A DNA stretch of 54,398 nucleotides from Planctomycetota bacterium (GCA_024277065.1 JAJRVY010000102.1:1-54398), one strand, 5' to 3'. Positions 13,021-27,831 are shown, numbered from the stretch's first letter. The notes: generated by a model not told the origin, from the sequence alone. Made by a program: numbers and translations.

Positions 13021-13078
13021 CGCGAGTCACGGGCGCATCCCGCTTGTGCCGCCGGCCCGGCGCCGCGAACCTCTGGTG

Positions 13079-14125: not shown

Positions 14126-14877
14126 CGGCCATGGCGCGCGTGCTCCTCGTGGACGACGAGCGCCTGGCGCGCGACGAGGTCCGGCGACACCTCGGCCGGC
14201 ATGCCGGAATCGAGATCGTCGGCGAGGCCACGGACGGCGCGGCGGCGGTCGAGAGCATCGTGCTCCTGGCGCCCGACATCGTGTTCCTCGACATCGAGAT
14301 GCCGGAACTGGACGGCTTCGAGGTGCTCCAGGCGGTCCCGGACGACGAACGCCCGGTGGTGGTGTTCGTCACGGCCTACGACGAGTTCGCCCTGCGCGCG
14401 TTCGAGGCGCGCGCCGTGGACTACCTGCTGAAGCCATTCGACGAGGAGCGCTTCGACGCGGCCCTCGCCCGCGCTCTCGTCCACGTCCACGGCCGGGCCG
14501 CGGCGCTCGGCGAGCTCTTGACCGACGTCGCGCGCGCCGGCCACCGGCCGACGCGCATCGCGGCCCGCGCCGGGCGCCGTTTCCACCTTCTGGACGTCGC
14601 CGACATCGAGCGCCTCGAGGCGTCACGCAACTACGTCCTCGTGCACACCGCCGGCGGCGAGTACCTGACGCGCACGACGCTGACGTCGCTCGCGGAGCGG
14701 CTCGACCCGGGCGAGTTCCTGCGCATCCACCGCAGTCACGTCGTGCGCATCGAGTCCGTCGCAGCTCTCGATCGCGCGAGTTCCGGCGACCTCGATGTGC
14801 GCCTGCGCGACGGCACCACGCTGCCCGTCGCCCGCAGCAAGCGAAGCCAGGTGCTCGAACGGTTCCAGGCCCTCTGA
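14122..14877 (+). CDS. LytTR family response regulator
   Basis: Receiver domain (LVDDE, FLDIEMPELDG, FVTAYDEFA, DYLLKP) plus LytTR domain (FLRIHRSHVV). ATGA overlap with the kinase gene. Confidence 0.95.
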   Translation: MTAMARVLLVDDERLARDEVRRHLGRHAGIEIVGEATDGAAAVESIVLLAPDIVFLDIEMPELDGFEVLQAVPDDERPVVVFVTAYDEFALRAFEARAVDYLLKPFDEERFDAALARALVHVHGRAAALGELLTDVARAGHRPTRIAARAGRRFHLLDVADIERLEASRNYVLVHTAGGEYLTRTTLTSLAERLDPGEFLRIHRSHVVRIESVAALDRASSGDLDVRLRDGTTLPVARSKRSQVLERFQAL

Positions 14878-15019
14878 GGTCCGCGATCGGGAAGGGACGT
14901 GGCAGACCACGGGGACCGCGAGTCTGCTCGCATCTTCCGCCCCCCCCCCTCCGTGTGCGGCGCCCGGGCGTCGCAGCGAACGAGTACGCCCGCCATCCGT
15001 TAGCCCGGGAGGAGAGCCC

Positions 15020-16562
15020 GTGCGCCGCACTCTGACGATCTGTCTATTCGCGACCTGTCTCGTCGCCGCCGGTTCGGTGACCACCGCGCAGGTGCGCGCG
15101 GGCGGGTTCGAGCCGGTCGTCGTGCCCGACCGCAAGGGGCGTGACACGCTGTACGCATGGCTCAGTACGATCGGCTACCCCGACGGCGTCGGCACCGAGA
15201 CCGTCGTGCTGCGATCGCGGGCGAACGAACTGGCGTTCGTCGTGGGCGACAGCGACGAGAGCCTGGATCTGTTCTCCGTGGACGGCGCGGCTGTGACGAT
15301 CACGCGCGCCGACGCAGACGGTACACCCGAGCGCGCTGCGGGTGCAGCTCATCGCCGAACTCGGCGGCGCCGAGGACGACAGCGTCACCGACGTGCTGCG
15401 GGGCGAGTGCGCCGCGGACCGTCCGTTCGCCGTGCGGCAGATCGCCGCGCAGCGACTGCGTCCCCGCGACCCTCGGGCGGCCCGGCAGATCGTCCTGGAT
15501 CTCTGGCGCACGGACGCGGGGCCGATCGCCATCGACTATCCGGCCGCGCAGGCGGTGGTCGTGGAGCACCAGGATCGCGAGAGCGCGTGGAGTCGTCTGA
15601 TTCCGGATCTCGTCGCGACGGAGGCGTGGAGCGCAATCGCGATGGAACTGCCGCAGAAGACCCCGTGGACGCGCGTCCACGTGCTGCGACAGATCGCCAC
15701 CTCGGCACCTGCGCCACTCGCGGAGCGAGCCGTGGCGGAGATGCTGCTCGACGGCCTGCTCGACGGAAGCGAGCTGCCGGACGCCGTGGGCACGGGCGAC
15801 ATCGGGAACTGCCCGGACCCGCGCGTCTGCGACGTCATCGGCACAGCACTGGCCGGACGCGGCGACGCGGTCGCCACGCTCCGCTCGTTCCCCGCTCTCG
15901 CTGCGCGTGAAGACCGTGATATCGCCTTCGCTACGGCGCGCGCCGCCCTGCGCTCGGCGCTCGGGCAGGAGCCGCGCCCCACGCCCACCGCGTTCCGCGT
16001 CACGCCTCTCGCCGACGCCGACGTGGCGCCTCTCGCGCTTGCCTGCCGGACCGGCGATCTCGCTGCGCAGGATCGTGCAGAGGACGCGATCGCCGCCGCG
16101 GGCCTGCCCGCACTGCCGCCACTGCGGCGCGCGTTCGGGGCGCTCACGAGCGGCGTTCCGGGCCGGCGTGCGTTCGCGCGCGCACTGTCGCGGCTCGCCA
16201 CGACGGTGGGCCGCGTGATCGTGCGCCCGGACGTGGACGAACACGTCGCTGCGGCCGTCTTGCCTCTCGCTGACCGGCCACTGGACGTTCGCGCACTCGT
16301 CGCGTCGTTGCGGGCGCTGCTCGACGACGGCCGTGCTCTCACGCTCTTGGTGCATCGACCGGCGGACGGCACCGGCGTCACGATCGTGGTCGCGGCGCCC
16401 GCGACGTCCCAGCGCTACCGGCTGGAGATGAACGGTGCGCACGGCCGGTCATCCCACCGCAACTTGGATGAGGCTGCCTGGGACCGTGTGGAGGAGGAGC
16501 TGCGCGCAGCGGTCACGACGCCCCACGACACGGGCTGGGCGGTTCGCATTCGGCTGCGCTGA
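15020..16562 (+). pseudogene. Secreted hypothetical protein with HEAT-like region, split by a frame change near 15300-15345
   Basis: GTG 15020 after GGAGGAG gives a signal peptide and about 100 protein-like residues, then that frame becomes Arg-rich nonsense. Protein-like coding continues in another frame (ALRVQLIAELGG...RVCDVIGTALA) to the stop at 16562. Confidence 0.55.
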
Positions 16563-16629: not shown

Positions 16630-19539
16630 TCAGACCATCTGGCGCGCCATCATGCGAGCGAACGGTCCCTCGCTCGCGGTGAGTTCCTCGAAGGTGCCCT
16701 GCTGCACGATGCAGCCCTCGTCGAGCACGTAGATGCGGCTCGCGCTGCGGACCGTGCTGAGGAGGTGCGCGATGACGATGCGCGTCACGCTGCGCCGCGC
16801 GAGGCTCTCGCCCACGACGCTCTGCGTGCGATTGTCGAGCGCGCTGGTGGCCTCGTCGAAGAGCAGGATGCAGGGGCGCACGACGAGCGCACGGGCGATC
16901 AACAGCCGCTGACGCTGCCCGCCGGAGAGGTTGCCGCCACCTTCGCTGACCACGGTGTGCAGGCCCATGGGCATCTGTGCGAGGTCGCTCTCGAGGCCCG
17001 CGTCGCGCGCCGCCTCCATGGCCTCGTCGAGAGACACGAGACTGCCGCACGCGATGTTGTCGTAGATGGACCCGGTGTTCAGCCGCCCCGACTGCAGGAC
17101 GACGCCGAGCTGCCTGCGCACGGCGGTGACGTCCAGGCCCGCGACGTCCTGGCCGTCGAACAGCACGGCGCCAGACTCCGGTGCTTCGAAGCCCAGGAGC
17201 AGCCGGAAGACCGTGGACTTGCCGCTGCCCGACGGGCCGACCAGGGCGATGAACTCGCCGGGCTCCGCCCGCAGGCTGATGTCGTCGAGGATCTTCGGTC
17301 CGTCGTCGCGGTAGCGGAAGACGATGCGCTCCAGCTCGACGCGGCCGGCCAGTCGTCCGGGGTCGGACTTCGAAGGGTCCACCTCCGGCTGCGCCTCGAG
17401 GATCGGGCGAATGCGCTTGCCGCGCGTCATCGTGTCCAGCATCCCGATGATCGTGTTGCTGAGCGACGTCGCGCCGCCGAGGAACGTCCCGAACGCCGCG
17501 TTGAACGCCAGGAACGTGCCGATGCTGAGCGGCTTCGCCGCGCCCTCGGCGAGCATCTGGCCGTAGCCGAACCAGAACAGCGAGATCGTGCCGAGCGTGG
17601 GCACGACGCCGTTGAAGATCACGACGTAGTCCTCGAGCCGCTGCGCGGCGAACATCACCCGGAGTTGTTCGGTGTAGCGCCGCACCCACGTCGTGTACGC
17701 GCGCTGTTCCGCGCCGGCGACGCGCAGTTTCGAGACGCCGCCCACGAGCTGGATGACGAGCCCGTAGAACGCCCCGCGCAGGTCCTCGAGGACGATGATC
17801 TTGCGCCGCACGGCCGCGCCGAACGACGCCGTGACGGCGAGGGCGACGGCCGTCACCACGACGGCGATGAGAGCGAGTTTCGCGCTGTAGTAGAGGAGCA
17901 GCCCCAGGTTGAGGAGTGCCAGGAAGCTCGTGAAGATGGTCCGCAGGGTCGCGCCGTTCAGCTCGCGGCCGACGTCGTTCGCGGCCAGCGCGCGGGACTG
18001 CAGGTCCCCCGATGAGTACTTCCTGAAGAACGACGGCTTGAGCGAGAGGAGGCGGTCCCAGACGGCCGCCTGGCTCGCGGCCTCGGTGCCCAGCCCGAGG
18101 CGCATGCTCACGACGCCCTCGGCGAGCGCGAAGACGGCCTGGCCGAAGGCCGCCGCGGCGAGCGCCAATCCCAGTTCCAGCAGCAGCCGGACGTTGGCCT
18201 CCGGGATGGCCTGATCCATCAGGAGCGCGGTGGCCTGCGGTGTGAGCATGCCCAGCAACGTGGCCGCCGTGCCGGTCATCAGGATGAACGCCAGATCACG
18301 TCCGCGGCCCGCCAGGGAGAAGCGCACGAGATCCCACAGAGTGAGCTTCCGTGCCGGGAGCGGGCGATACAGCATCACCGCCTCGGGATCGAGGGTCGCC
18401 GCCGTCGCTGCGTCCACCGGCGTCCGCTCGCGCGTCACCGGATCGAAGATCTCGTAGCGCTGGCGCCGCCCCTGGAGCAGTGCCAGCGGGCGCCGCTCTT
18501 CGTCCGCCGAGTACGCCACGAGAGGCCCGCAGTCCTGCCGCCACCACGCGCCCGAGAGCAGCACGCGACGGGTGCGCACGCGCGAGGCGCGGGCGATCGC
18601 GTCGAGCGGATCGGCCACGCGACCCATGTCCTCGGATCGCCCGGGGGGCTTGATCTCGACGCCCAGCGCGTCGCCGACGGCCGTGAGCACGGTGAGCAGC
18701 GACGTGTCGCAGGTGGCCGGGACGTCACGGGGATCCAGCACCGCTGCGAGATCCTCCAGCGCCGCGTCGGTCAGGTGTGCCTGGCGCCGACCACGCTCCT
18801 GCAATCGCCTGCGCTCGGCGTCGTCGGCGGCCAGCGCCTCACGCTGGAGATGCGCGAGCACGATGCGGTCGAGGTGCGAGAGTGCGGCGACGAGCTCCGC
18901 CGCGTCCGTGAGGGAGTTCGTGGCGCGCGCGCGCACGGTGGCCGCTCCCGCGGCGGTCACCCACATCGGTGAGCCGACGGGAAGCACGCCGTCACCGGCG
19001 GCGAGAGGCATCTCCGCGGCGCCCATGCAGTGCACCGTGCCCCGCTCGACGGCCATCCAGGCGACGCGGTCACTCGCGGGACGCAGGCACTGGCCGTCGT
19101 CCAGCGCAACCGCGCCGTCGTCCTCGACCTTCCGCGTGACGACGGGCGGCTCGAAGCCCGTGAGCAGTCGTCCGACGCGGTTCACCCACTGCTCGATGCG
19201 CGTCACGAACGGCGCCGGCAGAGTGCCACTGCGGCCGCGCGCCGTCGCGAGCGGCACGTCGCGCAGGCGCGCGGCCGCAGCGGCCACGGCGATGAGGCGC
19301 AACCGACGACCGGGCGCGCCCGGCACGGAGATCAGGGGCTCGCCCGCGCCGACGCGGAACAGGAAGCGCCGCGGCCCGACGGCGACGCCGCCGTCCGTCT
19401 CGGCGCAGAAGACCGCGACCGTGCCCGAGACGACGACGTGCATCGTGCCCGCACCATCCAGCAACAGGGGTTCGTTGCCGACCAGGGCGCGCTCGTCCTC
19501 GCCCGTGCCGGAGTCGCGCCGATCGGGGGCCGAGGTCAC
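16630..19539 (-). CDS. NHLP/Nif11 peptide export ABC transporter, permease/ATPase subunit without peptidase (TIGR03797-like)
   Basis: GTG 19539 overlaps the upstream stop. Long N-terminal region, IARASRVRTRRVLLSGAWWRQDCGPL, TM domain, GPSGSGKST, LSGGQRQRL, FDEATSALDN. Confidence 0.92.
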   Translation of the reverse strand: MTSAPDRRDSGTGEDERALVGNEPLLLDGAGTMHVVVSGTVAVFCAETDGGVAVGPRRFLFRVGAGEPLISVPGAPGRRLRLIAVAAAAARLRDVPLATARGRSGTLPAPFVTRIEQWVNRVGRLLTGFEPPVVTRKVEDDGAVALDDGQCLRPASDRVAWMAVERGTVHCMGAAEMPLAAGDGVLPVGSPMWVTAAGAATVRARATNSLTDAAELVAALSHLDRIVLAHLQREALAADDAERRRLQERGRRQAHLTDAALEDLAAVLDPRDVPATCDTSLLTVLTAVGDALGVEIKPPGRSEDMGRVADPLDAIARASRVRTRRVLLSGAWWRQDCGPLVAYSADEERRPLALLQGRRQRYEIFDPVTRERTPVDAATAATLDPEAVMLYRPLPARKLTLWDLVRFSLAGRGRDLAFILMTGTAATLLGMLTPQATALLMDQAIPEANVRLLLELGLALAAAAFGQAVFALAEGVVSMRLGLGTEAASQAAVWDRLLSLKPSFFRKYSSGDLQSRALAANDVGRELNGATLRTIFTSFLALLNLGLLLYYSAKLALIAVVVTAVALAVTASFGAAVRRKIIVLEDLRGAFYGLVIQLVGGVSKLRVAGAEQRAYTTWVRRYTEQLRVMFAAQRLEDYVVIFNGVVPTLGTISLFWFGYGQMLAEGAAKPLSIGTFLAFNAAFGTFLGGATSLSNTIIGMLDTMTRGKRIRPILEAQPEVDPSKSDPGRLAGRVELERIVFRYRDDGPKILDDISLRAEPGEFIALVGPSGSGKSTVFRLLLGFEAPESGAVLFDGQDVAGLDVTAVRRQLGVVLQSGRLNTGSIYDNIACGSLVSLDEAMEAARDAGLESDLAQMPMGLHTVVSEGGGNLSGGQRQRLLIARALVVRPCILLFDEATSALDNRTQSVVGESLARRSVTRIVIAHLLSTVRSASRIYVLDEGCIVQQGTFEELTASEGPFARMMARQMV

Positions 19540-21749
19540 GGCGCCTCCCCGGCGCCGTCGGCCGTGCGCAGCAGCGCGGCGTAGGTGCCGCCACGCCGCC
19601 ACAACTCATCGTGCGTGCCACGTTCGACGACCTTGCCGCGATCGAGCACGATGATCTCGTCGCAGTCGCGAATCGTGCTGAGGCGATGGGCGACGACGAT
19701 GCAGGAGCAGCCCCGCAGCCGCAGTCGATCGGAGATGTTGCGCTCGGTCTCCGCGTCGAGGGCGCTGGTCGCCTCGTCGAGGACCAGGATCGTCGGGTCA
19801 CCGACGAGCGCACGCGCGATCTCGAGCCGCTGGCGCTGTCCACCGCTGAGCGTGTTGCCGCCCTCGCCGAGTTCGCTGTCGAGGCCTCCCGGCAACGAGC
19901 GCACGACATCGTGGATGTCCGCGTCGCGACACGCACGGACGAGCGTCTCCTCGGGAACCGTCGCGTCCCACAGCGTCAGGTTGTCGCGCACGGATCCGCC
20001 GAAGAGCGAGATGTCCTGATCGACCAGCGCGAGCGAGTTGTGGACCAGATCGCGCGGCACGTCCTCGCGCCGCGTCCCGTCGAGCAGGATCTCGCCCGAC
20101 CACGGCGAGAAGAGGCCGCAGATGATCTTGGCGATCGTGGACTTGCCGGACCCGCTGCCACCCACGAGCGCCACGCGCTGGCCGGGTTTGAGCACGAAGC
20201 CGAAGTCCTCGATGAGAGGGGGATCGAGAGGGCTGTAGCCGAACGTGACACCACGGAGCTCGATGGCCCCGCGCAGGCGCACGCGATCGGTGAGCGCTGC
20301 GGGCGCGGCGGACTCCTGCGGCTCGCCCGGCGCGGACGGATCGACCGAGTGGGCCAGCACGTCGTCGAGACGGGCCATGTCGCCGTGCAGTTCCTGGATC
20401 GTGCTGCCGAGTCCCACGAGGCTGTTCACGGGTCCGAGGAAGCTGAACATGAGGCTCTGGAAGGCCACGAGCATGCCGATGGTCAGGGCGCCGTCGATCA
20501 CGCGGTATCCGCCGACGACCAGGATGAGCAGCGTGGCCAGCCCGGTGAGCAGTGACGGCACGACGCCCAGCGCCTGGTTGGCGGTCTCGATCTCCTGCCG
20601 TGCGTTGGACGCGTTCGCGTAGTAGCCGTTCAGCTTGGCGAAGAAGCCCGACTCCTGGCCCGACGACTTGATCGTCTCCATGCTCTGCAACCCGGCGATG
20701 GCGGCGCCACCGACCTTGCCGTACTCCTGCAACAGACGCATGTTCGCCTCGACACGCCGTGACGAGAGCACCTTGAGCAACAGCACGTTCAGCAGCGCGA
20801 AGGCGATGCCGATGAGCGTCAGCACACCGTCGTAGAGGAACATCATCGCGGCGTAGAAGACGAGCATCACGACGTCGATGACGGTCGATGCGAGCTGCCC
20901 GGAAAGTACGTCGGCGACCTTGTCGTTGAGCTCCGTCCGGGACGTGATCTCGCCCGCGTAGCGCTGGGAGTAGAACTCCGCGGGCAGCCGTAGCAGGTGC
21001 CAGAAGAACTTCGCCGACATGCGCACGGACAGCGCGAGCTTGAGGCGCCGCAGGTAGCGCAGTTGCAGGAAACGCAGCGAGCCCTGCATCAACACGGTGC
21101 CGCACATGGCCACGACCAGCGGCCGCAGCCACTCCGAGCGTCCCTCGGCGAGCACGTTGTCGAGGAACACCTGCATGAACGCCGGCACGGCGAGGCCGGG
21201 GATGACGAGCAGGAACCCCGCCAGCACGCAGTACCAAACGGCCGCGTGGTTGCCGTGAAGCCGCTCGCGCAGCGCGGGCAGCATGCGGGGCCGGCGGCCG
21301 CCCTTCTCGAAGTCCGGTCCGGGGGACATGACGAGCGTGACGCCCGTGAACCCCTCGTCGAACTCCTCGAGCGTCACGGTTCGGTGGCCCACCGCAGGGT
21401 CGTTGAGGAAGACCTTGTCCTTCCCGAAGCCCTCCACGACGACGAAGTGGTTGAAGTGCCAGAAGATGATGTACGGGAGTTCCACGTCGCGCAGCGACTC
21501 GACGCTCTTCGAGAAGCCCTTCGCGTTCAGCCCGTAGCGCCGCGCCGCCTTGACGACGTTGGACGCGCGGGAGCCGTCGCGCGAGACGCCGCACTCCCGG
21601 CGCAGTTCGGCCAGCGGCACGATGCGGCCGTGATGGCCGAGGATCATGCCGAGAGCCGCCGCGCCGCACTCGACGGCCTCCATCTGGATGACCGTCGGCG
21701 TGGACCGCCGCCGTGGCACCGCACGCGACCTGTCGGTCAGGAAGGGCAA
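19536..21749 (-). CDS. NHLP/Nif11 peptide export ABC transporter with C39 peptidase (PCAT, TIGR03796-like)
   Basis: TPTVIQMEAVECGAAAL (catalytic Cys), CGVSRDGS, FWHFNHFVVVEG (catalytic His), NDPA, TM domain, GGSGSGKST, LSGGQRQRLEIARAL. Confidence 0.95.
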   Translation of the reverse strand: MPFLTDRSRAVPRRRSTPTVIQMEAVECGAAALGMILGHHGRIVPLAELRRECGVSRDGSRASNVVKAARRYGLNAKGFSKSVESLRDVELPYIIFWHFNHFVVVEGFGKDKVFLNDPAVGHRTVTLEEFDEGFTGVTLVMSPGPDFEKGGRRPRMLPALRERLHGNHAAVWYCVLAGFLLVIPGLAVPAFMQVFLDNVLAEGRSEWLRPLVVAMCGTVLMQGSLRFLQLRYLRRLKLALSVRMSAKFFWHLLRLPAEFYSQRYAGEITSRTELNDKVADVLSGQLASTVIDVVMLVFYAAMMFLYDGVLTLIGIAFALLNVLLLKVLSSRRVEANMRLLQEYGKVGGAAIAGLQSMETIKSSGQESGFFAKLNGYYANASNARQEIETANQALGVVPSLLTGLATLLILVVGGYRVIDGALTIGMLVAFQSLMFSFLGPVNSLVGLGSTIQELHGDMARLDDVLAHSVDPSAPGEPQESAAPAALTDRVRLRGAIELRGVTFGYSPLDPPLIEDFGFVLKPGQRVALVGGSGSGKSTIAKIICGLFSPWSGEILLDGTRREDVPRDLVHNSLALVDQDISLFGGSVRDNLTLWDATVPEETLVRACRDADIHDVVRSLPGGLDSELGEGGNTLSGGQRQRLEIARALVGDPTILVLDEATSALDAETERNISDRLRLRGCSCIVVAHRLSTIRDCDEIIVLDRGKVVERGTHDELWRRGGTYAALLRTADGAGEAP

Positions 21750-21753
21750 GCAG

Positions 21754-23187
21754 CTACTCTCCCGAGATACAGGACCGCAGGAACGGAAGTACGAACGTGA
21801 TCGGGGCGCGCTCCTCGGTGGTCACGCGAATCGTGGCGGTGGTGCCGGCCGTGACGTCCAGTTCGGGGCCGCCGGACGACGTCCACTCGAGGCCGCTGAA
21901 GGTGGTGGCATCCGGTGCCAGATCCGCGAACACCTCGATGCGGTTGCCGCCGCCGGTGAGCACCTGCGCCATCTCGCGATTGCCCACCTGGTTGGCGGCG
22001 GCGTCGGTGGTCACCGGGTACGCGGAGACCGCCGTGACGGCGCCGCGGATGCTGCCGAAACGCTCGCGCGGCACGGTCGAGGGGCTGATACGCGCCTTCA
22101 TGCCCGGCTCGATGCGCTTGCCGTCCGCCACGAGGAAGTAGGCCACGGCGAGCAACCGGCTCGCAGGATCCTCCGCCTCCATCGCGCCCAGCCTCTGCCC
22201 CGCAACGACGTAGGTGCCCACTGCCGCAGTCACCTCCAGGATGCGCCCGGAGTACTCGCTGACGATCCGTCCGCGCGTCTCGAGCTGACCCTCCAGCCGC
22301 GTGATCAACCTCTGGATGCCCTCCACCTCGCTCGCGCTGGACAGGGAACCCGACAGGAGGCGCCGGTCGATCTCGGCTTCCTTGATCTCCAGCGTCTGCA
22401 ACTGGATGCCGAGGTCGGCGATGCGATCGAGCTGCTCGAGGTAGGTTTCCTCGCTCTCGATCTCGCGCAGTTCCACGCCTTGCAGCGACACGCCGAGCTC
22501 GGCGAGCCGCAGTTTGTTCTCGATGAACGCGCGGCGCGAGTTCACCACCGCGTCCTCGGAGCTGAGTCCCTCGGACCTGAGGGCCTTGTAGCTCGCGAAA
22601 CGCTGCTGCAGGGCGAGGTCCAACTCGTCGCACAGACGCCGCGTCGTCGCGAGATTCGCGCGCTGCTGCTCGATGTACGCACGGTTCTTGGCCAACACGC
22701 TCTCCGCCATCTCGCCGAGTTTCGCGACGCGCTTCTCGATGAGTTCCCGCTGCCGGGCGAGGAAGCGCTTCTCCTTCTCGGCCTGCTCCTTCTCGAACGA
22801 GGTCAACGTCGCGTCGCGCGTGCGGAACTGGGCCAGCTTGCCGCGCTCCTCGGTGAGCTGCCGCTCGATCTCGGGGAGGTTCAGCGTCCCGAGGAGCTGC
22901 CCCTTCTTCACGAAGTCCCCCACGCGCACGTCGAGCGAGACGAGCTGTCCGCTCGCGGGCGACTGGAAGGCCACGACCTGCCGAGGATGGGCGAGAAGCG
23001 CGGTGCCGGTGGCCGTGATCGGAATGCGCCCGACGAAGCTCCAGGCGACGGCCAGCGCCAACGCGACGCTCGCGGCCACCAGCGGCAGCCAGTTTCGCCG
23101 CTTGACGACCCGCAGTAGTTCGTCGAGCCGGTCCGGGGTTGACAGACGTTCCAGGGACTTCTTCCTGAAGATGCTCTTCGCGGCCAT
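21754..23187 (-). CDS. NHLP system HlyD-family membrane fusion/secretion protein (TIGR03794-like)
   Basis: IFRKKSLERLSTPDRLDELLRVV N-terminus, one TM helix, lipoyl halves, long coiled coil, PSTVPRERFGSIRG, LEWTSSGGP, PITFVLPFLR. Confidence 0.94.
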   Translation of the reverse strand: MAAKSIFRKKSLERLSTPDRLDELLRVVKRRNWLPLVAASVALALAVAWSFVGRIPITATGTALLAHPRQVVAFQSPASGQLVSLDVRVGDFVKKGQLLGTLNLPEIERQLTEERGKLAQFRTRDATLTSFEKEQAEKEKRFLARQRELIEKRVAKLGEMAESVLAKNRAYIEQQRANLATTRRLCDELDLALQQRFASYKALRSEGLSSEDAVVNSRRAFIENKLRLAELGVSLQGVELREIESEETYLEQLDRIADLGIQLQTLEIKEAEIDRRLLSGSLSSASEVEGIQRLITRLEGQLETRGRIVSEYSGRILEVTAAVGTYVVAGQRLGAMEAEDPASRLLAVAYFLVADGKRIEPGMKARISPSTVPRERFGSIRGAVTAVSAYPVTTDAAANQVGNREMAQVLTGGGNRIEVFADLAPDATTFSGLEWTSSGGPELDVTAGTTATIRVTTEERAPITFVLPFLRSCISGE

Positions 23188-23212
23188 GTCCGCCTCCTGA
23201 GCTGCGCGATCG

Positions 23213-23755
23213 CTATACGGTCCGCAACTGCCGCATGAACCAGTCGAATCTCGCCCCGGCGAGCGAGACGCTCTCGAGGAGTTCCGGCGAGAGCTCGTCC
23301 TCCTCGCGCTCGTTCTGCGCGAGCGAGTGCTTGCCGCCCTTGGCGTGCATCGCCGTCGTGGCGGTCAGGCGGTTCGCGAGGAACAGGCACAGCGCACGGT
23401 AGAAGCGCGCCGCGAAACCGTTGTCGCTGCGCAGTTTGGAGCGGAGCGTGTCGTGCGGGATGGCGAACACCCTCGAATCGAGCGTAGCCGTGACGGTCGC
23501 GCTCGCTGGACGGGCGTCCAGGAGCGCCATGTCGCCGACGACCTCACCGCAACCGAGCCGCGCCACCTCCTCGCCACGAAGAGCGGCAACGGTGATGCGG
23601 AACTCGCCGTCCAGGATGACGTACAGCCGGTCGAGCTGCCGGCCCTCGTGGATGATGGCCGTGCCCGTCGCGACACGCGTGGACGTGCCGGAACCCACGA
23701 GCCAGTGGAGGTCGTCCTCGCTGAGCTCGCCGAAGATGAAGAGGACCTTGCGCAT
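23213..23755 (-). CDS. Cyclic-nucleotide-binding domain protein of NHLP-type transport clusters (TIGR03896-like)
   Basis: MRKVLFIFGELSEDDLHWL, LYVILDG, GEVVGDMALLDARPASATV, GFAARFYRAL, EDELSPELLESVSLAGARFDW. First gene of the exporter operon. Confidence 0.88.
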   Translation of the reverse strand: MRKVLFIFGELSEDDLHWLVGSGTSTRVATGTAIIHEGRQLDRLYVILDGEFRITVAALRGEEVARLGCGEVVGDMALLDARPASATVTATLDSRVFAIPHDTLRSKLRSDNGFAARFYRALCLFLANRLTATTAMHAKGGKHSLAQNEREEDELSPELLESVSLAGARFDWFMRQLRTV

Positions 23756-23822
23756 CGACGCCCCTCCCCGGCTGCCGGTACAGCGCCCGCGGCGATCGCG
23801 AGTCGCATTGGGCAGCGCCTTA

Positions 23823-23832
23823 GTGATATCAC
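23823..23832. promoter_or_regulatory. Perfect palindrome GTGATATCAC in the divergent promoter region between the exporter operon and tolC
   Basis: 10-bp self-complementary, relatively AT-rich element in a 131-bp divergent intergenic gap. Confidence 0.35.
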
Positions 23833-23886
23833 CTTTCGCGGCGTAGTCTGTAGGCCGGAATCCAGGAACGGACTCGCACCAGAACC

Positions 23887-25566
23887 ATGCTCACGGCCCA
23901 CGACGTCTTCCGCGTCCCGACGGCACTGACACTCACGGTCGCAGTTCTCGCCGCCTCGTGCCAGCGGCCGTTCCTCGCCGACGACCCGCTCCTGTCACCC
24001 GACGCCGACGCCCGCTTTCGCACGATCGAGGCAATGGCGCTCGAGGACCGGTCGCGCACGCCACCCGTGACGCCCGACGCCGCGCAGGCGACGACGCCCG
24101 AGGAGAGCGCCACCGCGGAGAACGAGAAGCCGTCGCTCTCGATACGGATCGAGGACGTCCGCAGTGACGCGCTGGCCAACAATCTGCTGCTCGAGGTACA
24201 GATCATCGACCCCGCCATCGCGGGCGCCGTCCTGGACGAGGAGGAGGCCAAGTTCGAGGCCGCGTTCTTCGCGCGCGTCGAGGCGCAGCGACGCGAGGTG
24301 AACGGCCCGCTCGCGCCGCCGCTCGACGCCACGACGAGCCGCCTCGAGCCGGGCATCCGCATCCCGCTGCGCGGCGGCGGAGAGGCGCGCGTCAGCCTGC
24401 CCGTGGAGTTCCGCGACGTGGACCCGCTCGGCGCGCCGTCGATCGACGCGACGGACAGCGGCGTGCGCTTCTCCTTCTCGCAGCCACTGCTTCGCGACGC
24501 CGGAGTCGGCGTCAACACGGCGTCCATCCAGGTCGCCCGCTTCAACGACCGGCGCGAGGAGGCGCGCAGCAAGCTCACCGCGATCCGCGTTCTCGCCAAC
24601 GCGGAGAAGGCCTACTGGGAGCTCTACGCCGCGACGCGCGAAGTGGAGATCCTGCACGACCGCTACGAGTCCACGCTGGAGCAGCTCGCCCAGGCCCGGC
24701 GCCTGGTCGTGGGAGGCGTCGTCGCCGAGATCGAGATCGTGCGCGCACAGGCGGGCGTCGCGCGCCGCCTCGAGTCGGTGATCTTCGCGGAGACGCGGCG
24801 CCGACTGGCCGAGACCGACCTCAAGCGCATCGTCAATCGACCGGACCTCCCTCTCGAGTCCGTCACCGTTCTCGTGCCGCAGACGGAGCCGCGCCCGCGC
24901 GGACTCGATCTGGACCCGCGAGCCATCGCGGCGCTGGCCATCACCAATCGCATGGAGCTGCTCGAACTCGAGATCCAACTCGCCATCGACGCGGTGAACG
25001 TCGAGGTGGCACGCAACGCAGAGCTCCCCGTGTTCGCACTGGACTTCGACTACTCCTTCAAGGGCACCGGAGACAGTTTCTCGGACTCGACGAGCAAGCT
25101 CGCGGACAACGACCTCGCGGACTGGGTCGTGGGCGCCACGATCGACATCCCGCTCGGCAACCACGCGGCGCGGGCACGCTTCCGTCAGGCCGTACTGCGC
25201 CGCACGCGGACCCTGGCGACGAGGGCGCTGCGCGAGCTCGCCATCCGCCAAGAGGTGAGCGACGCGCTCGACCAGCTCGAACAGGACTGGCAGCGGGTGC
25301 TCGCCGCGCGCCGCGAGACGATCCTCGTCGGTCGCAACTTCGAAGCCGAGCGCAGGCAGTTCCAGGCGGGCGTCCGCACGAGCACCGAGGTGCTGGAAGC
25401 CGCAGACTTCCTCGCGGAGGCGCGCACGCGGGAGGTGCGCGCGCTGGCCGACTACCAGGTCTCCATGGTGAATCTGGCGTTTGCGACGGGTACCGTCTTG
25501 GGACAGAGCCGCATTCACTGGCCCGCATTCGCCGCGGCCGCGCGGGAGGATCCCGCACAGGACTGA
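23887..25566 (+). CDS. TolC family outer-membrane efflux protein (lipoprotein signal)
   Basis: Lipobox LAASC and two OEP repeats (FSFSQPLLRDAG...EKAYWELY; LAITNRMEL...IDIPLGNHAARA...FQAGVRTSTEVL...LAFATGT). Confidence 0.92.
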   Translation: MLTAHDVFRVPTALTLTVAVLAASCQRPFLADDPLLSPDADARFRTIEAMALEDRSRTPPVTPDAAQATTPEESATAENEKPSLSIRIEDVRSDALANNLLLEVQIIDPAIAGAVLDEEEAKFEAAFFARVEAQRREVNGPLAPPLDATTSRLEPGIRIPLRGGGEARVSLPVEFRDVDPLGAPSIDATDSGVRFSFSQPLLRDAGVGVNTASIQVARFNDRREEARSKLTAIRVLANAEKAYWELYAATREVEILHDRYESTLEQLAQARRLVVGGVVAEIEIVRAQAGVARRLESVIFAETRRRLAETDLKRIVNRPDLPLESVTVLVPQTEPRPRGLDLDPRAIAALAITNRMELLELEIQLAIDAVNVEVARNAELPVFALDFDYSFKGTGDSFSDSTSKLADNDLADWVVGATIDIPLGNHAARARFRQAVLRRTRTLATRALRELAIRQEVSDALDQLEQDWQRVLAARRETILVGRNFEAERRQFQAGVRTSTEVLEAADFLAEARTREVRALADYQVSMVNLAFATGTVLGQSRIHWPAFAAAAREDPAQD

Positions 25567-25905
25567 CTGCTGCCGAGCGAGTGCGCGGCCTCCAGCGGGC
25601 ATCGGTTCTCCGCGCAGGACATCGACGATCTCGTCCTCGCCGCAGCCGTCACCGAGGCGCGCGAGGCCGGCGGCGAGCTGAGTCTGGAGGCGCTGGACGC
25701 CGCCGCAGGGGGCGTGGTGGGGCTCGGATCGAGCGCGATGCTCTCCCCGTCCTCGGCGCTGGCACGCCTCGGAAGCAGGGCCAGCGCCATGGGGATGCAC
25801 TTCCAACAGGCCATGCAAAGGCAGTCCCAGCTCACGAACGTGCTCAGCAACATGTTGAAGCAGCGGCACAACGCCTCCATGTCGATCATCAACAACATGC
25901 GGTGA
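25567..25905 (+). CDS. Double-glycine (Nif11/NHLP-like) leader precursor with a T3SS-needle-like core; start uncertain
   Basis: Open frame right after the tolC stop: LLPSECAASSGHRFSAQDIDDLVLAAAVTEAREAGGELSLEALDAAAGG / VVGLGSSAMLSPSSALARLGSRASAMGMHFQQAMQRQSQLTNVLSNMLKQRHNASMSIINNMR. No ATG/GTG/TTG before the leader; CTG at 25567 and 25570. Confidence 0.8.
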   Translation: MLPSECAASSGHRFSAQDIDDLVLAAAVTEAREAGGELSLEALDAAAGGVVGLGSSAMLSPSSALARLGSRASAMGMHFQQAMQRQSQLTNVLSNMLKQRHNASMSIINNMR

Positions 25906-26387
25906 TCGCCCGGGCCAGGTCGGCGCGGCAGCCGCTTGCAGATGCAATGCGCCGCGCCCGGCGCGCGGCGGCATCGATCCGCGTCTTCCGCAAGTCGCCG
26001 CGGACGACACCCGGGCCACTCGGGGATGCCCTGGCACGCTGGATCGACGGACATTCACTGGTCGCCGGGATGGACGACGAGTCCGCGCTGCTCGATGTCG
26101 CGCTGTCACCGGCGCCCGGCCTCGAGCGCATCCATCGCGCGCAGCCCACGGGCGACGGCTGGAACTCGACGTCACAACGGTTGCGCATCCGCGCGGGACT
26201 CTGCTGCGAGTCCGACGTCGATTCAGTGGCGGCCGAGATCGTCGGCCTGCTGGGCAACGGACGAACGCCCCGCGAGGCGCTCGCGGTGTTCGCAAAGCGT
26301 CACGTCATCTCCGTCGAGCCGTTCCTTCCGGGTCTGCCGGCTGCCCTCGCCAAACTCCTGGGCATGGGCGTGCTCACGCCGGGTTGA
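25902..26387 (+). CDS. PqqD/RRE-like winged-helix protein resembling the C-terminal part of a class I SAM methyltransferase (possibly a remnant)
   Basis: GTG 25902 overlaps the precursor stop; alternative ATG at 25947. LLDVALSPAPG...GDGW...RLRIRAGL...DVDSVAAEIVGLLGNGRTPREAL...LAKLLGMGVL. No SAM-binding motif present. Confidence 0.55.
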   Translation: MIARARSARQPLADAMRRARRAAASIRVFRKSPRTTPGPLGDALARWIDGHSLVAGMDDESALLDVALSPAPGLERIHRAQPTGDGWNSTSQRLRIRAGLCCESDVDSVAAEIVGLLGNGRTPREALAVFAKRHVISVEPFLPGLPAALAKLLGMGVLTPG

Positions 26388-26478
26388 GAGGAGCACGCGG
26401 CCATGGCACGCGCAGACCTCGGGTCCGGCGCCGTCCCGCAGGAACCGGCGCTCGTCGCCGGTGCGCGTGGGACGTCGA

Positions 26479-27831
26479 TCAGAAGTCCCACTCCGGCGCC
26501 GGGGCGGGCTCGCTCTTCTTCACGATCATCCCCGCGCCGACGGTCTGGTTCGTACTCTCTTCGATGAGGATGAAGGCACCTGTCGCGCGATTGGCCGAGT
26601 AGTCATCACAGAAGAGCGGCTTCTGCACGCGGATCAGGACACGACCGAGCTCGTTCAGATCGAGTTGATCGACGCCCTCGTCGCGATGGAGGGTGTTCAC
26701 GTCGATGCGGTAGCGCAGCACCTTGATGCGCGCCCGCACCTGCTTCGTCGTGTGACGCAGGAGGTACTTCTTCGCGGGGTCCATCTTGGAATCCGACATC
26801 CAGCAGACGGTGGCCTCGATCTCGTTCTCGATGCGCGGCACGTTCTGCGGGCGCACGATCATGTCGCCGCGACTCACGTCGATGTCGTCCTCTAGCGTGA
26901 GACAGACCGACTGCGGCGCGACAGCCGTGCGTAGATCCCCGTCGTACGTGACGATCGACGCCACCTTGCTGGTGATGCCCGACGGCAGGTGGACGACCTC
27001 GTCGCCGACCGACACGGCGCCGGACTCGATCTGCCCCATGTACCCGCGGAAGTCGTGCAGTTCGTCGGTCTGCGGACGGCTCACGTACTGCACCGGGAAA
27101 CGGAAGTCGATGAGGTTGCGGTCGAACGACGTCTCGAGGTTCTCGACGAGGTTGAGCAGTGTGCGGCCGTGATACCACGGCATCTTCTCGCCGCGCTCCA
27201 CCACCATGTCGCCGTTCAGCGCGGACAGCGGGATGTAGCGGATGTCCCGCGCCTCGAGCTTGGCGGCCCACTCGCGGAACTCGCCACGGATCTCCTCGAA
27301 ACGCGCCTAGGAGTAGTCCACGAGATCCATCTTGTTGACGGCGATCACGAGGTGCGGGATGCCGAGCAGCGCGGAGATGAACGCGTGGCGCTTGGTCTGC
27401 GTCAGGATGCCGTTGCGGGCGTCCACGAGAATGATCGCGACCTCGGCCGTGCTGGCCCCGGTCACCATGTTGCGCGTGTACTGGATGTGGCCCGGCGTGT
27501 CGGCGACGATGAACGAGCGCCGCGGCGTCGAGAAGTAGCGGTACGCGACGTCGATCGTGATGCCCTGCTCGCGCTCGGCACGCAGGCCGTCGGTGATCAG
27601 CGCGAGGTCCACGCCCTCGCCGCCACGCCGGCGGTTCACGTCCTCGACATGTTCGAGCTGGTCCTCGAACACCGCCTTGGTGTCCACCAGCAGCCGCCCG
27701 AGCAGCGTGGACTTGCCGTCGTCCACGGAGCCGGCGGTGGCCATGCGCAGCAGCTCGATCTTGCGCCCGAAGACCGCCTGGGCGGCGTTCGGTGCGGCGT
27801 CCCGGGGGGGGCGGGCGGCGTTCGAGGGCAT
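26479..27831 (-). pseudogene. cysN: Sulfate adenylyltransferase subunit 1 interrupted by an in-frame TAG at 27307-27309 (may be a sequence error)
   Basis: [61 protein letters not shown]..., then the same frame continues with SALNGDMVV, FRFPVQYV, GAFILIEE..NQTVGAGMI. Confidence 0.9.

What the first reader, a model, noticed from the sequence alone, without database searches (positions are those of the whole stretch)
16630..26387. Complete NHLP-type export machine with no tailoring enzymes nearby
Seen: the cNMP protein, HlyD, C39-ABC (Cys and His intact) and second ABC form one operon. tolC, the precursor and the RRE-like gene are transcribed divergently. No YcaO/cyclodehydratase, LanM, radical SAM or immunity gene is recognisable anywhere in the 54 kb. 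Established: this transporter set is normally annotated as bacteriocin/RiPP export. Inference: here it may be a dedicated secretion system for unmodified or lightly modified structural peptides, not for a classical bacteriocin.
Basis: partly seen in the sequence, partly recalled or inferred. Interest (0 to 1): 0.75.

Follow-up and report, generated by a model that had tools for sequence, protein, structure and literature searches.

The report
Peptide exporter with needle-like helical cargo
This is a genuine peptide-cleaving export pump of a well-known type, but the two small genes beside it are broken gene fragments, and its likely cargo is an unmodified helical peptide related to proteins that other bacteria send out through quite different secretion machines.

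Summary
The exporter is real and of a known type. TIGR03797, TIGR03796 and TIGR03794 all score above their cut-offs. A cNMP-binding protein lies in the same tight operon and an OEP/TolC gene is divergent. It holds the only clear C39 peptidase domain in this 91.6%-complete MAG.

- The "precursor" (25567-25905) is a 5'-truncated Nif11-type gene. It has no ATG, GTG or TTG before its Gly-Gly site.
- The "RRE-like gene" is the last ~150 codons of a ~500-aa SAM methyltransferase. That family is full-length in relatives.

No YcaO, LanC, LanM or LanB was found in the genome. An NHLP precursor (C160), a Nif11 precursor (C282) and a short GG peptide (C272) sit among housekeeping genes.

The window core and the C160 core contain no Cys. 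They belong to a widespread ~45-aa C-terminal helix domain. This domain also occurs:
- at the sctF position of T3SS loci;
- directly after an Rhs core;
- on a tail-tube fusion;
- behind signal peptides.

The machine itself is ordinary. The cargo family looks undescribed in the searches I ran.

The parts
16630..19602 (-). Second ABC exporter subunit without a peptidase domain (NHLM_micro_ABC2). The likely start is at 19539 (4-nt overlap with the upstream gene) or GTG 19602. The N-terminal ~300 aa are unassigned.
   Evidence: TIGR03797 920.1 bits against cut-off 709.4, residues 300-989. Pfam ABC_membrane and ABC_tran. The N-terminal 300 aa have no Pfam hit at E<=0.05.
19536..21749 (-). C39 peptidase/permease/ATPase exporter (PCAT, NHLM_micro_ABC1)
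   Evidence: TIGR03796 1111 bits against cut-off 853.3. Peptidase_C39 124.5 bits. Gln22, Cys28, His101 and Asp117 are present in the translation. It is the only C39 match above cut-off in the genome.
21754..23187 (-). HlyD-type membrane fusion protein (NHLM_micro_HlyD)
   Evidence: TIGR03794 340 bits against cut-off 156.2. It is the only match above cut-off in the genome.
23213..23755 (-). Single-domain cyclic-nucleotide-binding protein, first gene of the operon
   Evidence: PF00027 66.7 bits. TIGR03896 154 bits, below cut-off 161.05, matching model positions 139-317 of 317. The same gene precedes HlyD in the cassettes of G018 and G037.
23887..25566 (+). Outer-membrane channel (OEP/TolC family), divergent from the operon, ending in TGA at 25564-25566
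   Evidence: PF02321 113.9 bits in two stretches. TIGR01844 77 bits, below cut-off. Not adjacent to the cassette in the three relatives examined.
25567..25713 (+). C-terminal half of a Nif11-type double-glycine leader (…ELSLEALDAAAGG). It has no canonical start codon and is in frame with the tolC stop.
   Evidence: sequence. GC3 is 0.90. It aligns to the second half of the leaders of Nif11-type relatives. No hit to TIGR03793, TIGR03798 or PF07862 at E<=10.
25714..25905 (+). 63-aa core with no Cys and net charge +6. The C-terminal ~40 aa belong to the '…SNIMKTKHDTAKNAINNVR' helix domain family.
   Evidence: An HMM built from 118 unrelated C-termini hits it at E 2.1e-7 among 59,620 six-frame ORFs. 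AlphaFold2 predicts one helix over residues 61-111 with pLDDT 79-95. Composition.
25947..26387 (+). 3' remnant of a DUF7059-MTase-DUF7782 class I SAM methyltransferase gene. This is the 'RRE-like' ORF, whose ATG is at 26070.
   Evidence: 56% identity to residues 350-481 of the 510-aa P0126. PF25004 27.7 bits against cut-off 27. It is the only piece of this protein in the assembly. In the other genomes listed, most matches span nearly the whole query.

Best explanation
Region 16630-25566 encodes a complete tripartite peptide exporter of the NHLP/Nif11-associated type. It comprises a C39-peptidase ABC transporter, a second ABC subunit, an HlyD adaptor, a small cNMP-binding protein and an outer-membrane channel. 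It is the only such machine found in the assembly. I infer that it serves as the shared exporter for double-glycine precursors scattered around the genome: an NHLP-leader precursor on C160, a Nif11-leader precursor on C282 and a short GG peptide on C272. The C39 domain would cut after Gly-Gly and the peptide would leave through HlyD and TolC. No recognisable maturase accompanies any of these precursors, so the products are most likely exported unmodified or only lightly modified.

The segment 25567-26387, just downstream of tolC, is a recombination scar. It holds a 5'-truncated Nif11-type precursor with no canonical start, butted against the last third of a methyltransferase gene. The truncated copy is probably not the main cargo, or is dead.

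Its core and the core of the intact C160 precursor are about 60-aa, Cys-free, cationic, amphipathic single helices. They belong to a widespread extreme-C-terminal domain that other lineages attach to T3SS-locus proteins, Rhs proteins, a tail-tube protein and Sec signal peptides. That domain, a secreted effector or assembly helix, is the payload.

Shown: gene identities, truncations, domain membership and distribution. Inferred: which peptides the pump exports, the absence of modification, and what the helix does.
For: - Exporter genes score above the curated cut-offs and are tightly spaced.
- There is one C39 domain above cut-off in the genome; a second match of 17.3 bits is below the cut-off of 22. 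There is one TIGR03794 match above cut-off.
- Leader matches elsewhere: C160 scores 52.8 bits against the NHLP cut-off of 50.9. C282 scores 40.3 bits against the Nif11 cut-off of 32.3.
- The 43 ORFs scanned around these three precursors are housekeeping genes: TrpRS, MerR, a short-chain dehydrogenase, a hydrolase, a PPIase. The only radical-SAM genes lie next to queC, or 10 kb away beside rph/Ham1.
- YcaO gave 0 matches and LANC_like gave 0.
- Truncation of the local precursor.
- Methyltransferase remnant. Matches spanning most of the 510-aa query (many from about residue 20 to 490) are listed in other genomes of the phylum; own genome matches only residues 351-507.
- Domain membership is independent of the leaders.
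- Domain carriers: 16 of 121 retrieved proteins have a Nif11-type GG leader. 36 of 80 genome loci have the TPR-chaperone neighbour inside T3SS clusters. One case sits 12 residues after an Rhs_assc_core match of 54.9 bits. There is a gp19 tube fusion and signal-peptide forms.
- Haft 2010 found this transporter to correlate with NHLP precursors better than any tailoring enzyme does (passages).
Against: - The assembly is 91.6% complete and in 362 contigs, so a maturase cluster could lie in the missing part or at contig ends.
- Four radical-SAM/SPASM matches (three clustered at the end of C139, one on C304) and a tandem SagB-type nitroreductase on C347 exist. Their neighbours look polysaccharide-related or housekeeping, but they are not excluded as peptide-modifying enzymes.
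- The controls for DUF4135 and Lant_dehydr_N rang in no control genome, so those two blanks are weak.
- No expression, cleavage or export data exist. No sequencing run was listed.
- The truncated local copy keeps GC3 of 0.90 and an open frame of 112 codons, so it might still be translated from CTG or by read-through.
- None of the 160 fetched loci carrying the domain has a C39 exporter within 10 kb. The link between this cargo and this pump therefore rests on the leaders alone.
Confidence: 0.65

Rival explanations
1. This is a classical RiPP export system. The precursors are modified by enzymes that are unassembled, unrecognised or remote (for example the radical-SAM/SPASM trio on C139 or the SagB-like protein on C347), and the transporter exports modified bacteriocins.
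For: There are four SPASM matches and one SagB-type match above cut-off in the genome. The assembly is incomplete (91.59%). Relatives carrying the same cassette have classical-looking cargo; for example G034 has five Nif11 precursors with V/I-rich cores beside HlyD. A methyltransferase remnant sits beside the local peptide.
Against: No GG-leader peptide was found by pattern within the examined parts of C139, C347 and C304. Their neighbours are a glycosyltransferase, Wzm/Wzt-type ABC genes, a carbamoyltransferase and RsmE. No YcaO or LanC was found. The two needle-like cores have 0 Cys and are a conserved folded domain, not a hypervariable core. The full-length methyltransferase family shows no GG peptide within 1.5 kb in 19 other loci.
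Confidence: 0.2
2. The peptide next to tolC is alive. It is translated from the CTG codons right after the tolC stop, or by read-through of the weak TGA-C stop. It is then cleaved at Gly-Gly and exported as a needle-like structural subunit that self-assembles outside the cell, which is the first reader's 'structural peptide'.
For: The frame is open for 112 codons with GC3 of 0.90 in both the leader and core parts. The GG motif and hydrophobic spacing are kept. The relatives' C-terminal domain occupies the sctF (needle) slot, followed by a TPR chaperone, an SctI-like gene, SctJ, SctL and SctN. There are weak hits to HrpA, HrpF and SctI.
Against: There is no ATG, GTG or TTG. The only GGGAGG lies 17 nt before the CTG. 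No SECIS-like fold follows the TGA (z = 0.18). Half the leader is missing, and the next gene is also a fragment. High GC3 and open frames persist in young pseudogenes of a 70% GC genome. Pfam scans at E<=1 did not list the needle family itself. A profile search of the PDB found no needle protein. The domain also sits at an Rhs toxin position.
Confidence: 0.15
3. The exported peptides are signals. The cassette together with the nearby LytTR two-component system (13046-14877) forms a peptide quorum-sensing circuit like those of Gram-positive bacteria.
For: A His_kinase (PF06580) and a Response_reg+LytTR pair lie 1.8 kb from the end of the operon. The association of PCATs with LytTR regulators in pheromone systems is recalled knowledge, not tested here.
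Against: The two are separated by about 1.7 kb of unassigned ORFs on the other strand. No synteny was seen with the cassette in the three relatives fetched. A 60-aa conserved helix shared with Rhs and T3SS proteins is unlike known pheromones.
Confidence: 0.07

Closest known systems
NHLP/Nif11-associated export cassette (TIGR03794, TIGR03796, TIGR03797; Haft et al. 2010, PMC2887384)
   Same: All three proteins score above the equivalog cut-offs. The order HlyD, C39-ABC, ABC2 is the same. The precursors have NHLP or Nif11 leaders ending in Gly-Gly. The precursors are scattered in the genome.
   Different: No TOMM or lanthipeptide enzymes were found. Two cores are a conserved helical protein domain rather than short hypervariable Cys/Ser/Thr-rich cores. 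An outer-membrane channel gene is adjacent here, but not in the three relatives looked at.
Class II microcin export (CvaA/CvaB/TolC-type; recalled, not tested against sequences)
   Same: A double-glycine leader, a C39 ABC exporter, an HlyD-type adaptor, TolC, and an unmodified cationic peptide product.
   Different: There are two ABC subunits plus a cNMP protein. The leaders are long NHLP/Nif11-type. No small membrane immunity gene was identified. The cargo has no similarity to known microcins in the NCBIfam scans.
T3SS needle or pilus subunits (SctF, HrpA, HrpF) and inner rod SctI
   Same: Relatives of the cargo domain sit between a small gene and a TPR chaperone (LcrH/SctY/CdsG-like). These lie upstream of SctI-like, SctJ, SctL and SctN genes. 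The domain is a C-terminal helix ending in a basic residue. There are weak hits to HrpA_pilin (E 0.0027), HrpF (0.015) and SctI (0.16).
   Different: All these hits are below the curated cut-offs. The needle Pfam family itself was not listed. The planctomycete copies are led by GG leaders and are not in a T3SS locus.
Polymorphic toxin C-terminal domains (Zhang et al. 2012, PMC3482391)
   Same: The same short C-terminal module is joined to many trafficking modules: an Rhs core, a gp19 tube, Sec signals and GG leaders.
   Different: The domain is unusually conserved (93% identity to P0004 residues 93-138 in Asgard-archaeal MAG contigs). No conserved immunity gene was found. No catalytic fold is possible in about 45 residues. 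I found no named toxin family for it (family scans).

Membership tests
NHLP-type bacteriocin export cassette | Peptidase/permease/ATPase subunit matching TIGR03796 above its cut-off | tested here: met
   1111 bits against 853.3.
NHLP-type bacteriocin export cassette | Second permease/ATPase subunit (TIGR03797) and HlyD subunit (TIGR03794) above their cut-offs, adjacent to each other | tested here: met
   920.1 against 709.4 and 340 against 156.2. Spacing of 4 nt and a 4-nt overlap.
NHLP-type bacteriocin export cassette | C39 catalytic Cys and His (with Gln and Asp) present | tested here: met
   Gln22, Cys28 (ECG), His101 (NHFVV) and Asp117 (NDP) can be read in the translation. Which residues are catalytic is recalled.
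TIGR03896 bacteriocin-type transport-associated cNMP protein | Score above 161.05 over the full 317-position model | tested here: not met
   154 bits, model positions 139-317 only. It is a half-length relative.
NHLP (TIGR03793) or Nif11 (TIGR03798/PF07862) leader precursor - window peptide | Match to the leader model, and a start codon | tested here: not met
   No hit at E<=10. No ATG, GTG or TTG before the GG site. Only the last ~35 leader residues align to Nif11-type relatives.
NHLP leader precursor - C160 paralogue | Match to TIGR03793 above 50.9 bits, a Gly-Gly site and an ATG start | tested here: met
   52.8 and 51.3 bits. Sequence MTDAV…SAAGG|LTRG….
RiPP recognition element (PqqD-like) - ORF 26070-26387 | Match to a PqqD/RRE family, as a stand-alone gene | tested here: not met
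   The Pfam scan at E<=10 lists only DUF7782. The ORF is the tail of a 490-510-aa methyltransferase. Only one other short form was found.
T3SS needle/pilin (SctF/HrpA) | Significant match to a needle or pilin family | tested here: not met
   Best hits are HrpA_pilin 18.9 bits (cut-off 25), HrpF 16.1 (22.8) and NF053530 14.7 (34). A PDB profile search found no needle protein.
T3SS needle/pilin (SctF/HrpA) | Gene at the sctF position beside a TPR chaperone within a T3SS locus | tested here: met
   This holds for the ~180-aa relatives only. The TPR neighbour occurs in 36 of 80 loci. L052 has SctJ at E 1.8e-40, SctL at 113 bits and SctN at 607.3 bits against a cut-off of 604.75. It does not hold for the window copy.
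Polymorphic toxin C-terminal domain | Located directly after an Rhs repeat-associated core | tested here: met
   One case. The TIGR03696 match (54.9 bits) ends 12 codons before the domain in the same 1846-aa frame.
Polymorphic toxin C-terminal domain | Cognate immunity gene immediately downstream | tested here: inconclusive
   No neighbour is shared across all contexts. The TPR gene in T3SS loci could be a chaperone or an immunity protein.

The most novel reading that the evidence does not exclude
The ~45-aa '…NRQFTxxSNIMKTKHDTAKNAINNVR' helix may be a cross-system secreted module. It could be the needle- or pilin-like subunit, or the secreted effector, that Myxococcales-type T3SS loci were reported to lack (Abby & Rocha 2012). 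On this reading it has been captured repeatedly by other export routes: Nif11/NHLP Gly-Gly leaders for C39 exporters, Rhs cages, contractile-tail tubes and Sec signals. In this planctomycete a T1SS-like pump would then export an unmodified T3SS-type helix, which acts on neighbouring cells either as a toxin or by interfering with their T3SS assembly.
Probability: 0.2. Interest if true: 0.8.

Novelty: new variant of a known kind. Interest (0 to 1): 0.5.

Why it matters
The exporter itself adds nothing new. However, it points to a class of NHLP/Nif11-led precursors whose "core" is a conserved protein domain rather than a scaffold for chemistry. If these are exported unmodified, genome-mining pipelines that call every such cassette a RiPP cluster over-predict natural products.

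The domain's occurrence across several export contexts (T3SS loci, an Rhs protein, a tail-tube fusion, Sec signals and PCAT leaders) makes it a candidate for a very small, widely shared effector or assembly module. It also offers a concrete candidate for the unassigned needle-position gene in T3SS loci of Myxococcota MAGs.

The case is also a caution.

Tried and rejected
- Selenocysteine or structured read-through at the tolC TGA. The 86 nt around it fold no better than shuffles (z = 0.18), so I rejected this.
- PDB profile search with the core alignment. One chance hit at E 0.93 and no needle protein.
- Fold search of the model. Not run, because a single long helix would match anything.
- Complex prediction with four copies of the core. 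The verdict was 'no answer'. It is not evidence either way.
- The look-up of sequencing runs for 25200-26400. None was listed, and no RNA holder was listed.
- The search of earlier findings by sequence. Nothing returned.
- A strict genome-wide pattern for ELSxExLxxxxGG found only the window copy in a plausible context. It missed the three other precursors, which the leader HMMs then found.
- A link between the methyltransferase family and GG peptides. Neither a GG peptide nor the helix domain lies within 1.5 kb of 19 full-length copies. Unrelated methyltransferase-TPR genes do sit beside Nif11-type copies in L131/L133 and L051. I left this unresolved.
- A link between the helix domain and C39 exporters. 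0 of 160 loci carry one within 10 kb.
- My first Pfam and NCBIfam query for the 'RRE' ORF was in the wrong frame. I repeated it correctly.
- Literature. No paper in the searched library holds 'Nif11', 'needle' and 'type III secretion' together.
Full report
**What is in the sequence**

The window is one whole contig (C2) of a 4.44-Mb MAG in 362 contigs, 91.6% complete and 1.07% contaminated. It is about 70% G+C, so I called genes by third-position GC.

On the minus strand four genes follow one another with gaps of 25 nt and 4 nt and then a 4-nt overlap:
- 23213-23755: a 180-aa cNMP-binding protein (PF00027, 66.7 bits).
- 21754-23187: an HlyD adaptor (TIGR03794, 340 bits against a cut-off of 156).
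- 19536-21749: a C39-peptidase ABC exporter (TIGR03796, 1111 bits against 853; Peptidase_C39, 124.5 bits).
- 16630-19539/19602: a second ABC subunit (TIGR03797, 920 bits against 709).

In the C39 domain, Gln22, Cys28, His101 and Asp117 are present. Their catalytic role is recalled, not tested. The cNMP protein reaches 154 bits on TIGR03896, just under the 161 cut-off, and covers only the second half of that model.

Divergently, across 131 nt, lies an OEP/TolC-family gene (23887-25566, PF02321 113.9 bits).

**The two small genes after tolC are fragments**

*The precursor.* The frame holding ELSLEALDAAAGG (25675-25713) is open from 25567 to 25905. Codon 1 directly follows tolC's TGA (25564-25566), in the same frame. 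There is no ATG, GTG or TTG before the GTG at 25714, which is the first codon after Gly-Gly. Third-position GC is 0.90 in the leader part and 0.91 in the core.

Aligned with its relatives, the leader corresponds only to the second half of Nif11-type leaders. For example, GHRFSAQDIDDLVLAAAVTEAREAGGELSLEALDAAAGG aligns with GFAFTDTEIDGVFLALAVEEAREAGQELSVEELEMVAGG. The first ~40 residues present in the Nif11-type relatives are missing. Neither the NHLP model nor the Nif11 model matches it at E<=10. The public gene call is a 38-aa stub (P0001). The RNA after the TGA folds no better than shuffles (z = 0.18). The only GGGAGG lies 17 nt before the first CTG.

*The "RRE-like" ORF.* This ORF (ATG at 26070) passes DUF7782 by a whisker (27.7 bits against 27). 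Its frame from 25947 aligns at 56% identity to residues 350-481 of a 510-aa DUF7059-methyltransferase-DUF7782 protein.
- No other piece of that protein exists in the assembly.
- In the same phylum, 24 of 301 genomes match it, own genome included. Most of the listed matches in other genomes span nearly the whole query, while the window matches only residues 351-507.
- Only one other short form was found.

So 25567-26387 is a junction of two truncated genes, only ~41 nt apart. The next gene, cysN, carries an in-frame TAG.

**Tailoring enzymes**

In the window, none of 46 ORFs scanned has a YcaO, LanC, LanB or radical-SAM domain. A plain nitroreductase lies 21 kb away.

In the whole assembly:
- YcaO: 0 matches. 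LANC_like: 0 matches.
- DUF4135: 0 and Lant_dehydr_N: 0, but their controls rang in no control genome, so these two blanks are weak.
- SPASM radical-SAM: four matches, three clustered at the end of C139 and one on C304.
- SagB-type dehydrogenase: above cut-off on C347.

The neighbours of these are a heptosyltransferase, Wzm/Wzt-type ABC genes, a carbamoyltransferase and RsmE. No GG-leader peptide was found by pattern near them. They are not excluded as peptide-modifying enzymes, but nothing ties them to peptides.

**Other precursors**

The leader models find:
- an NHLP precursor on C160 (52.8 bits against a cut-off of 50.9);
- a Nif11 precursor on C282 (40.3 bits against 32.3);
- a short GG peptide on C272, which is sub-threshold on the models but carries a clear …LDQVAGG site.

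The 43 neighbouring ORFs scanned are housekeeping genes. The window holds the only C39 domain above cut-off in the genome; a second match of 17.3 bits is below the cut-off. It also holds the only TIGR03794 match above cut-off. It is therefore the natural exporter for all of them. This is an inference.

Precursors that account for the pump exist elsewhere, but they lack Cys-rich cores and cognate maturases. Haft et al. 2010 already reported that this cassette correlates with NHLP precursors more strongly than any tailoring enzyme does (PMC2887384, passages read).

**What the cargo is**

The window core and the C160 core are related. Both end …LSN.L…H…S.SI.NM[RK].

- A phmmer scan of 1.84 billion representative proteins with the 112-aa frame gave 8 hits at E<=0.001. 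Among them were 108-141-aa peptides with Nif11-type leaders and the C-terminus …SNIMKTKHDTAKNAINNVR.
- A profile of the cores found 2018 proteins at E<=0.001 among the 7999 candidates scored. Only proteins of 115-2000 aa were searched.
- An HMM built from the last 52 residues of 118 such proteins, with no sequence from this genome, was run with filters off over all 59,620 six-frame ORFs of the genome. It hit exactly two: C160 (E 1.6e-8) and the window peptide (E 2.1e-7). Nothing else appeared up to E = 10.

Membership therefore does not depend on the leaders.

AlphaFold2 predicts one continuous helix for residues 61-111 of the window frame (pLDDT 79-95) and a poorly defined leader. The two cores have 0 Cys, net charge +6 and +5, many Gln and Asn, and a hydrophobic moment of 0.41-0.47.

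**Where else the domain occurs**

In one-genome-per-species contigs, 244 of 360 candidate stretches were confirmed. The 80 best loci are all MAGs. They include Myxococcota, Bdellovibrionales, Acidobacteriota, Aminicenantes, Gemmatimonadota, Armatimonadota and a few Asgard and Nitrososphaerota archaea. The archaeal copies are 93% identical to P0004 residues 93-138.

Of 121 retrieved proteins, 16 carry a Nif11-type GG leader directly before the domain.

Clustering of neighbouring ORFs shows a conserved operon. A ~115-aa gene is present in 33 of 80 loci. It is followed by the ~180-aa domain gene, then a ~140-aa TPR protein (36 of 80 loci). Further genes come after. Their family matches are:
- the TPR protein: LcrH/SycD, SctY and CdsG chaperones;
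- a FliA-type sigma factor;
- an SctI-like gene (weak);
- SctJ (E 1.8e-40);
- SctL (113 bits);
- SctN (607.3 bits against a cut-off of 604.75);
- FliJ.

That is the yscE-F-G…I-J-K-L-N order, which I recall rather than tested, with the domain gene in the needle slot. Weak hits to HrpA_pilin (E 0.0027), HrpF (0.015) and SctI (0.16) point the same way. All are below the cut-offs, and a profile search of PDB sequences found no needle protein.

Abby and Rocha (PMC3459982, passages read) reported that Myxococcales T3SS loci lack SctF. I did not test whether the loci seen here belong to that "Myxo" type.

The same domain also:
- forms the extreme C-terminus of an 1846-aa frame in another Planctomycetota MAG, 12 codons after an Rhs repeat-associated core match of 54.9 bits. 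That is the position of the toxin domain in Rhs proteins;
- ends a gp19 tail-tube fusion (PF06841, 42.1 bits);
- ends many proteins whose N-termini look like signal peptides. These were judged by eye.

None of the 160 fetched loci has a C39 exporter within 10 kb.

**Distribution of pump and cargo**

- The domain is found in 8 of 301 sampled genomes of the phylum, own genome included. It is in none of 7 genomes of the same family.
- TIGR03796 scores above cut-off in 4 of 41 relatives, own genome included, and in none of the same genus, family or order.
- The three other cassettes keep the order (cNMP)-HlyD-C39ABC-ABC2 but have no adjacent tolC.
- Their neighbouring GG-leader ORFs are quite different in the two richest cases. 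G034 has five Nif11 precursors with V/I-rich cores. G037 has an Arg/Asp/Gly-rich low-complexity ORF with a GG motif.

Pump and cargo are therefore patchy and independently assorted.

**How it most likely works**

Shown: a complete exporter, leader-bearing precursors, and no detectable maturase.

Inferred: precursors made anywhere in the genome are recognised through the last ~15 leader residues. They are cut after Gly-Gly by the C39 domain and passed through the ABC pair, HlyD and TolC. The NHLP-led C160 product, and the window product if it is made at all, would emerge as a ~60-aa unmodified cationic helix.

What that helix does is open. Its appearance behind an Rhs core, on a tube protein and behind GG leaders favours a toxin or effector role, and I lean that way. 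Its place in T3SS loci and the weak pilin and rod hits keep a self-assembling, needle-like role alive.

The copy beside tolC is more likely a remnant than a working gene. I put the chance that it is translated at about one in three.

**Verdict**

The exporter is a textbook member of a known family, and finding it away from maturases is already in the literature.

The cargo is the interesting part. It is a conserved helical domain shared among PCAT, T3SS-locus, Rhs, tail-tube and Sec contexts. I found it under no family name. No paper in the searched library holds 'Nif11', 'needle' and 'type III secretion' together.

Supplementary files of the cited papers were not consulted.

Noticed in passing
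window 26479-27831 (-), stop at 27307-27309: The cysN-like gene (GTP_EFTU domain plus C-terminal domain) is interrupted by a single in-frame TAG (…[19 protein letters not shown]…). Otherwise it is one continuous frame. It lies right next to the two truncated genes. It could be a nonsense mutation, an assembly error or local decay.
   Followed up: partly
G000:C139:40377-40559 (-): A radical-SAM/SPASM match in the own genome also carries one in-frame TAG. Together with cysN, that makes two in-frame TAGs in otherwise intact genes. Stop-codon usage in the genome was not examined.
   Followed up: no
window 13046-14877 (+): A LytS-type histidine kinase (PF06580) and a Response_reg+LytTR regulator lie 1.8 kb beyond the end of the exporter operon. 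Between them lie about 1.7 kb of ORFs with no Pfam match (14795-16562).
   Followed up: no
L052:9123-18860 and 35 further loci (L053-L128): T3SS clusters of Myxococcota, Bdellovibrionales and 'Deltaproteobacteria' MAGs carry a conserved ~180-aa gene at the sctF position. It has a conserved N-terminal region, a Gly/Ser-rich linker and the KHDTAK helix. A TPR chaperone gene follows it. It is a candidate needle, pilin or secreted subunit, where Myxococcales systems were reported to lack SctF.
   Followed up: partly
L062, L063, L064, L083 (Asgard archaeal MAG contigs); L077 (Nitrososphaerota): Proteins of 124-128 aa (332 aa in L077) in archaeal MAG contigs end in the same helix domain. Identity to P0004 residues 93-138 is 87-93% in the Asgard contigs and 76% over residues 88-138 in L077. 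This could be horizontal transfer, a mobile element or binning contamination. It was not resolved.
   Followed up: no
L131:1057-2883, L133:228-2156, L051:10395-11471 (-): Nif11-led copies of the helix peptide in metagenome and Gemmatimonadota contigs are flanked by TPR-containing SAM methyltransferases (Methyltransf_28 or Methyltransf_11). These families differ from the remnant in the window. This hints at possible methylation of such peptides.
   Followed up: partly
L049 (G034:C450) 13597-15584: A relative with the same export cassette has five tandem Nif11-leader precursors. Their cores are short and extremely hydrophobic, rich in V, I and P (for example …GG|VNTTVVVLVVVVMIALAE), and they lie directly upstream of HlyD.
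   Followed up: no
G000:C272:4899-5207 (-): A GG-leader peptide whose core is made of aromatic/Ser repeats and (T)PIPIP repeats (WGFSSFAAAYSYSYSPWAVTPIPIPQVAVTPIPIPMPGATPIAIP). It sits next to a PPIase gene.
   Followed up: no
window 16630-19602 (-), N-terminal ~300 aa: The second ABC subunit has a ~300-residue N-terminal extension before the TIGR03797 match. It has no Pfam domain at E<=0.05.
   Followed up: partly
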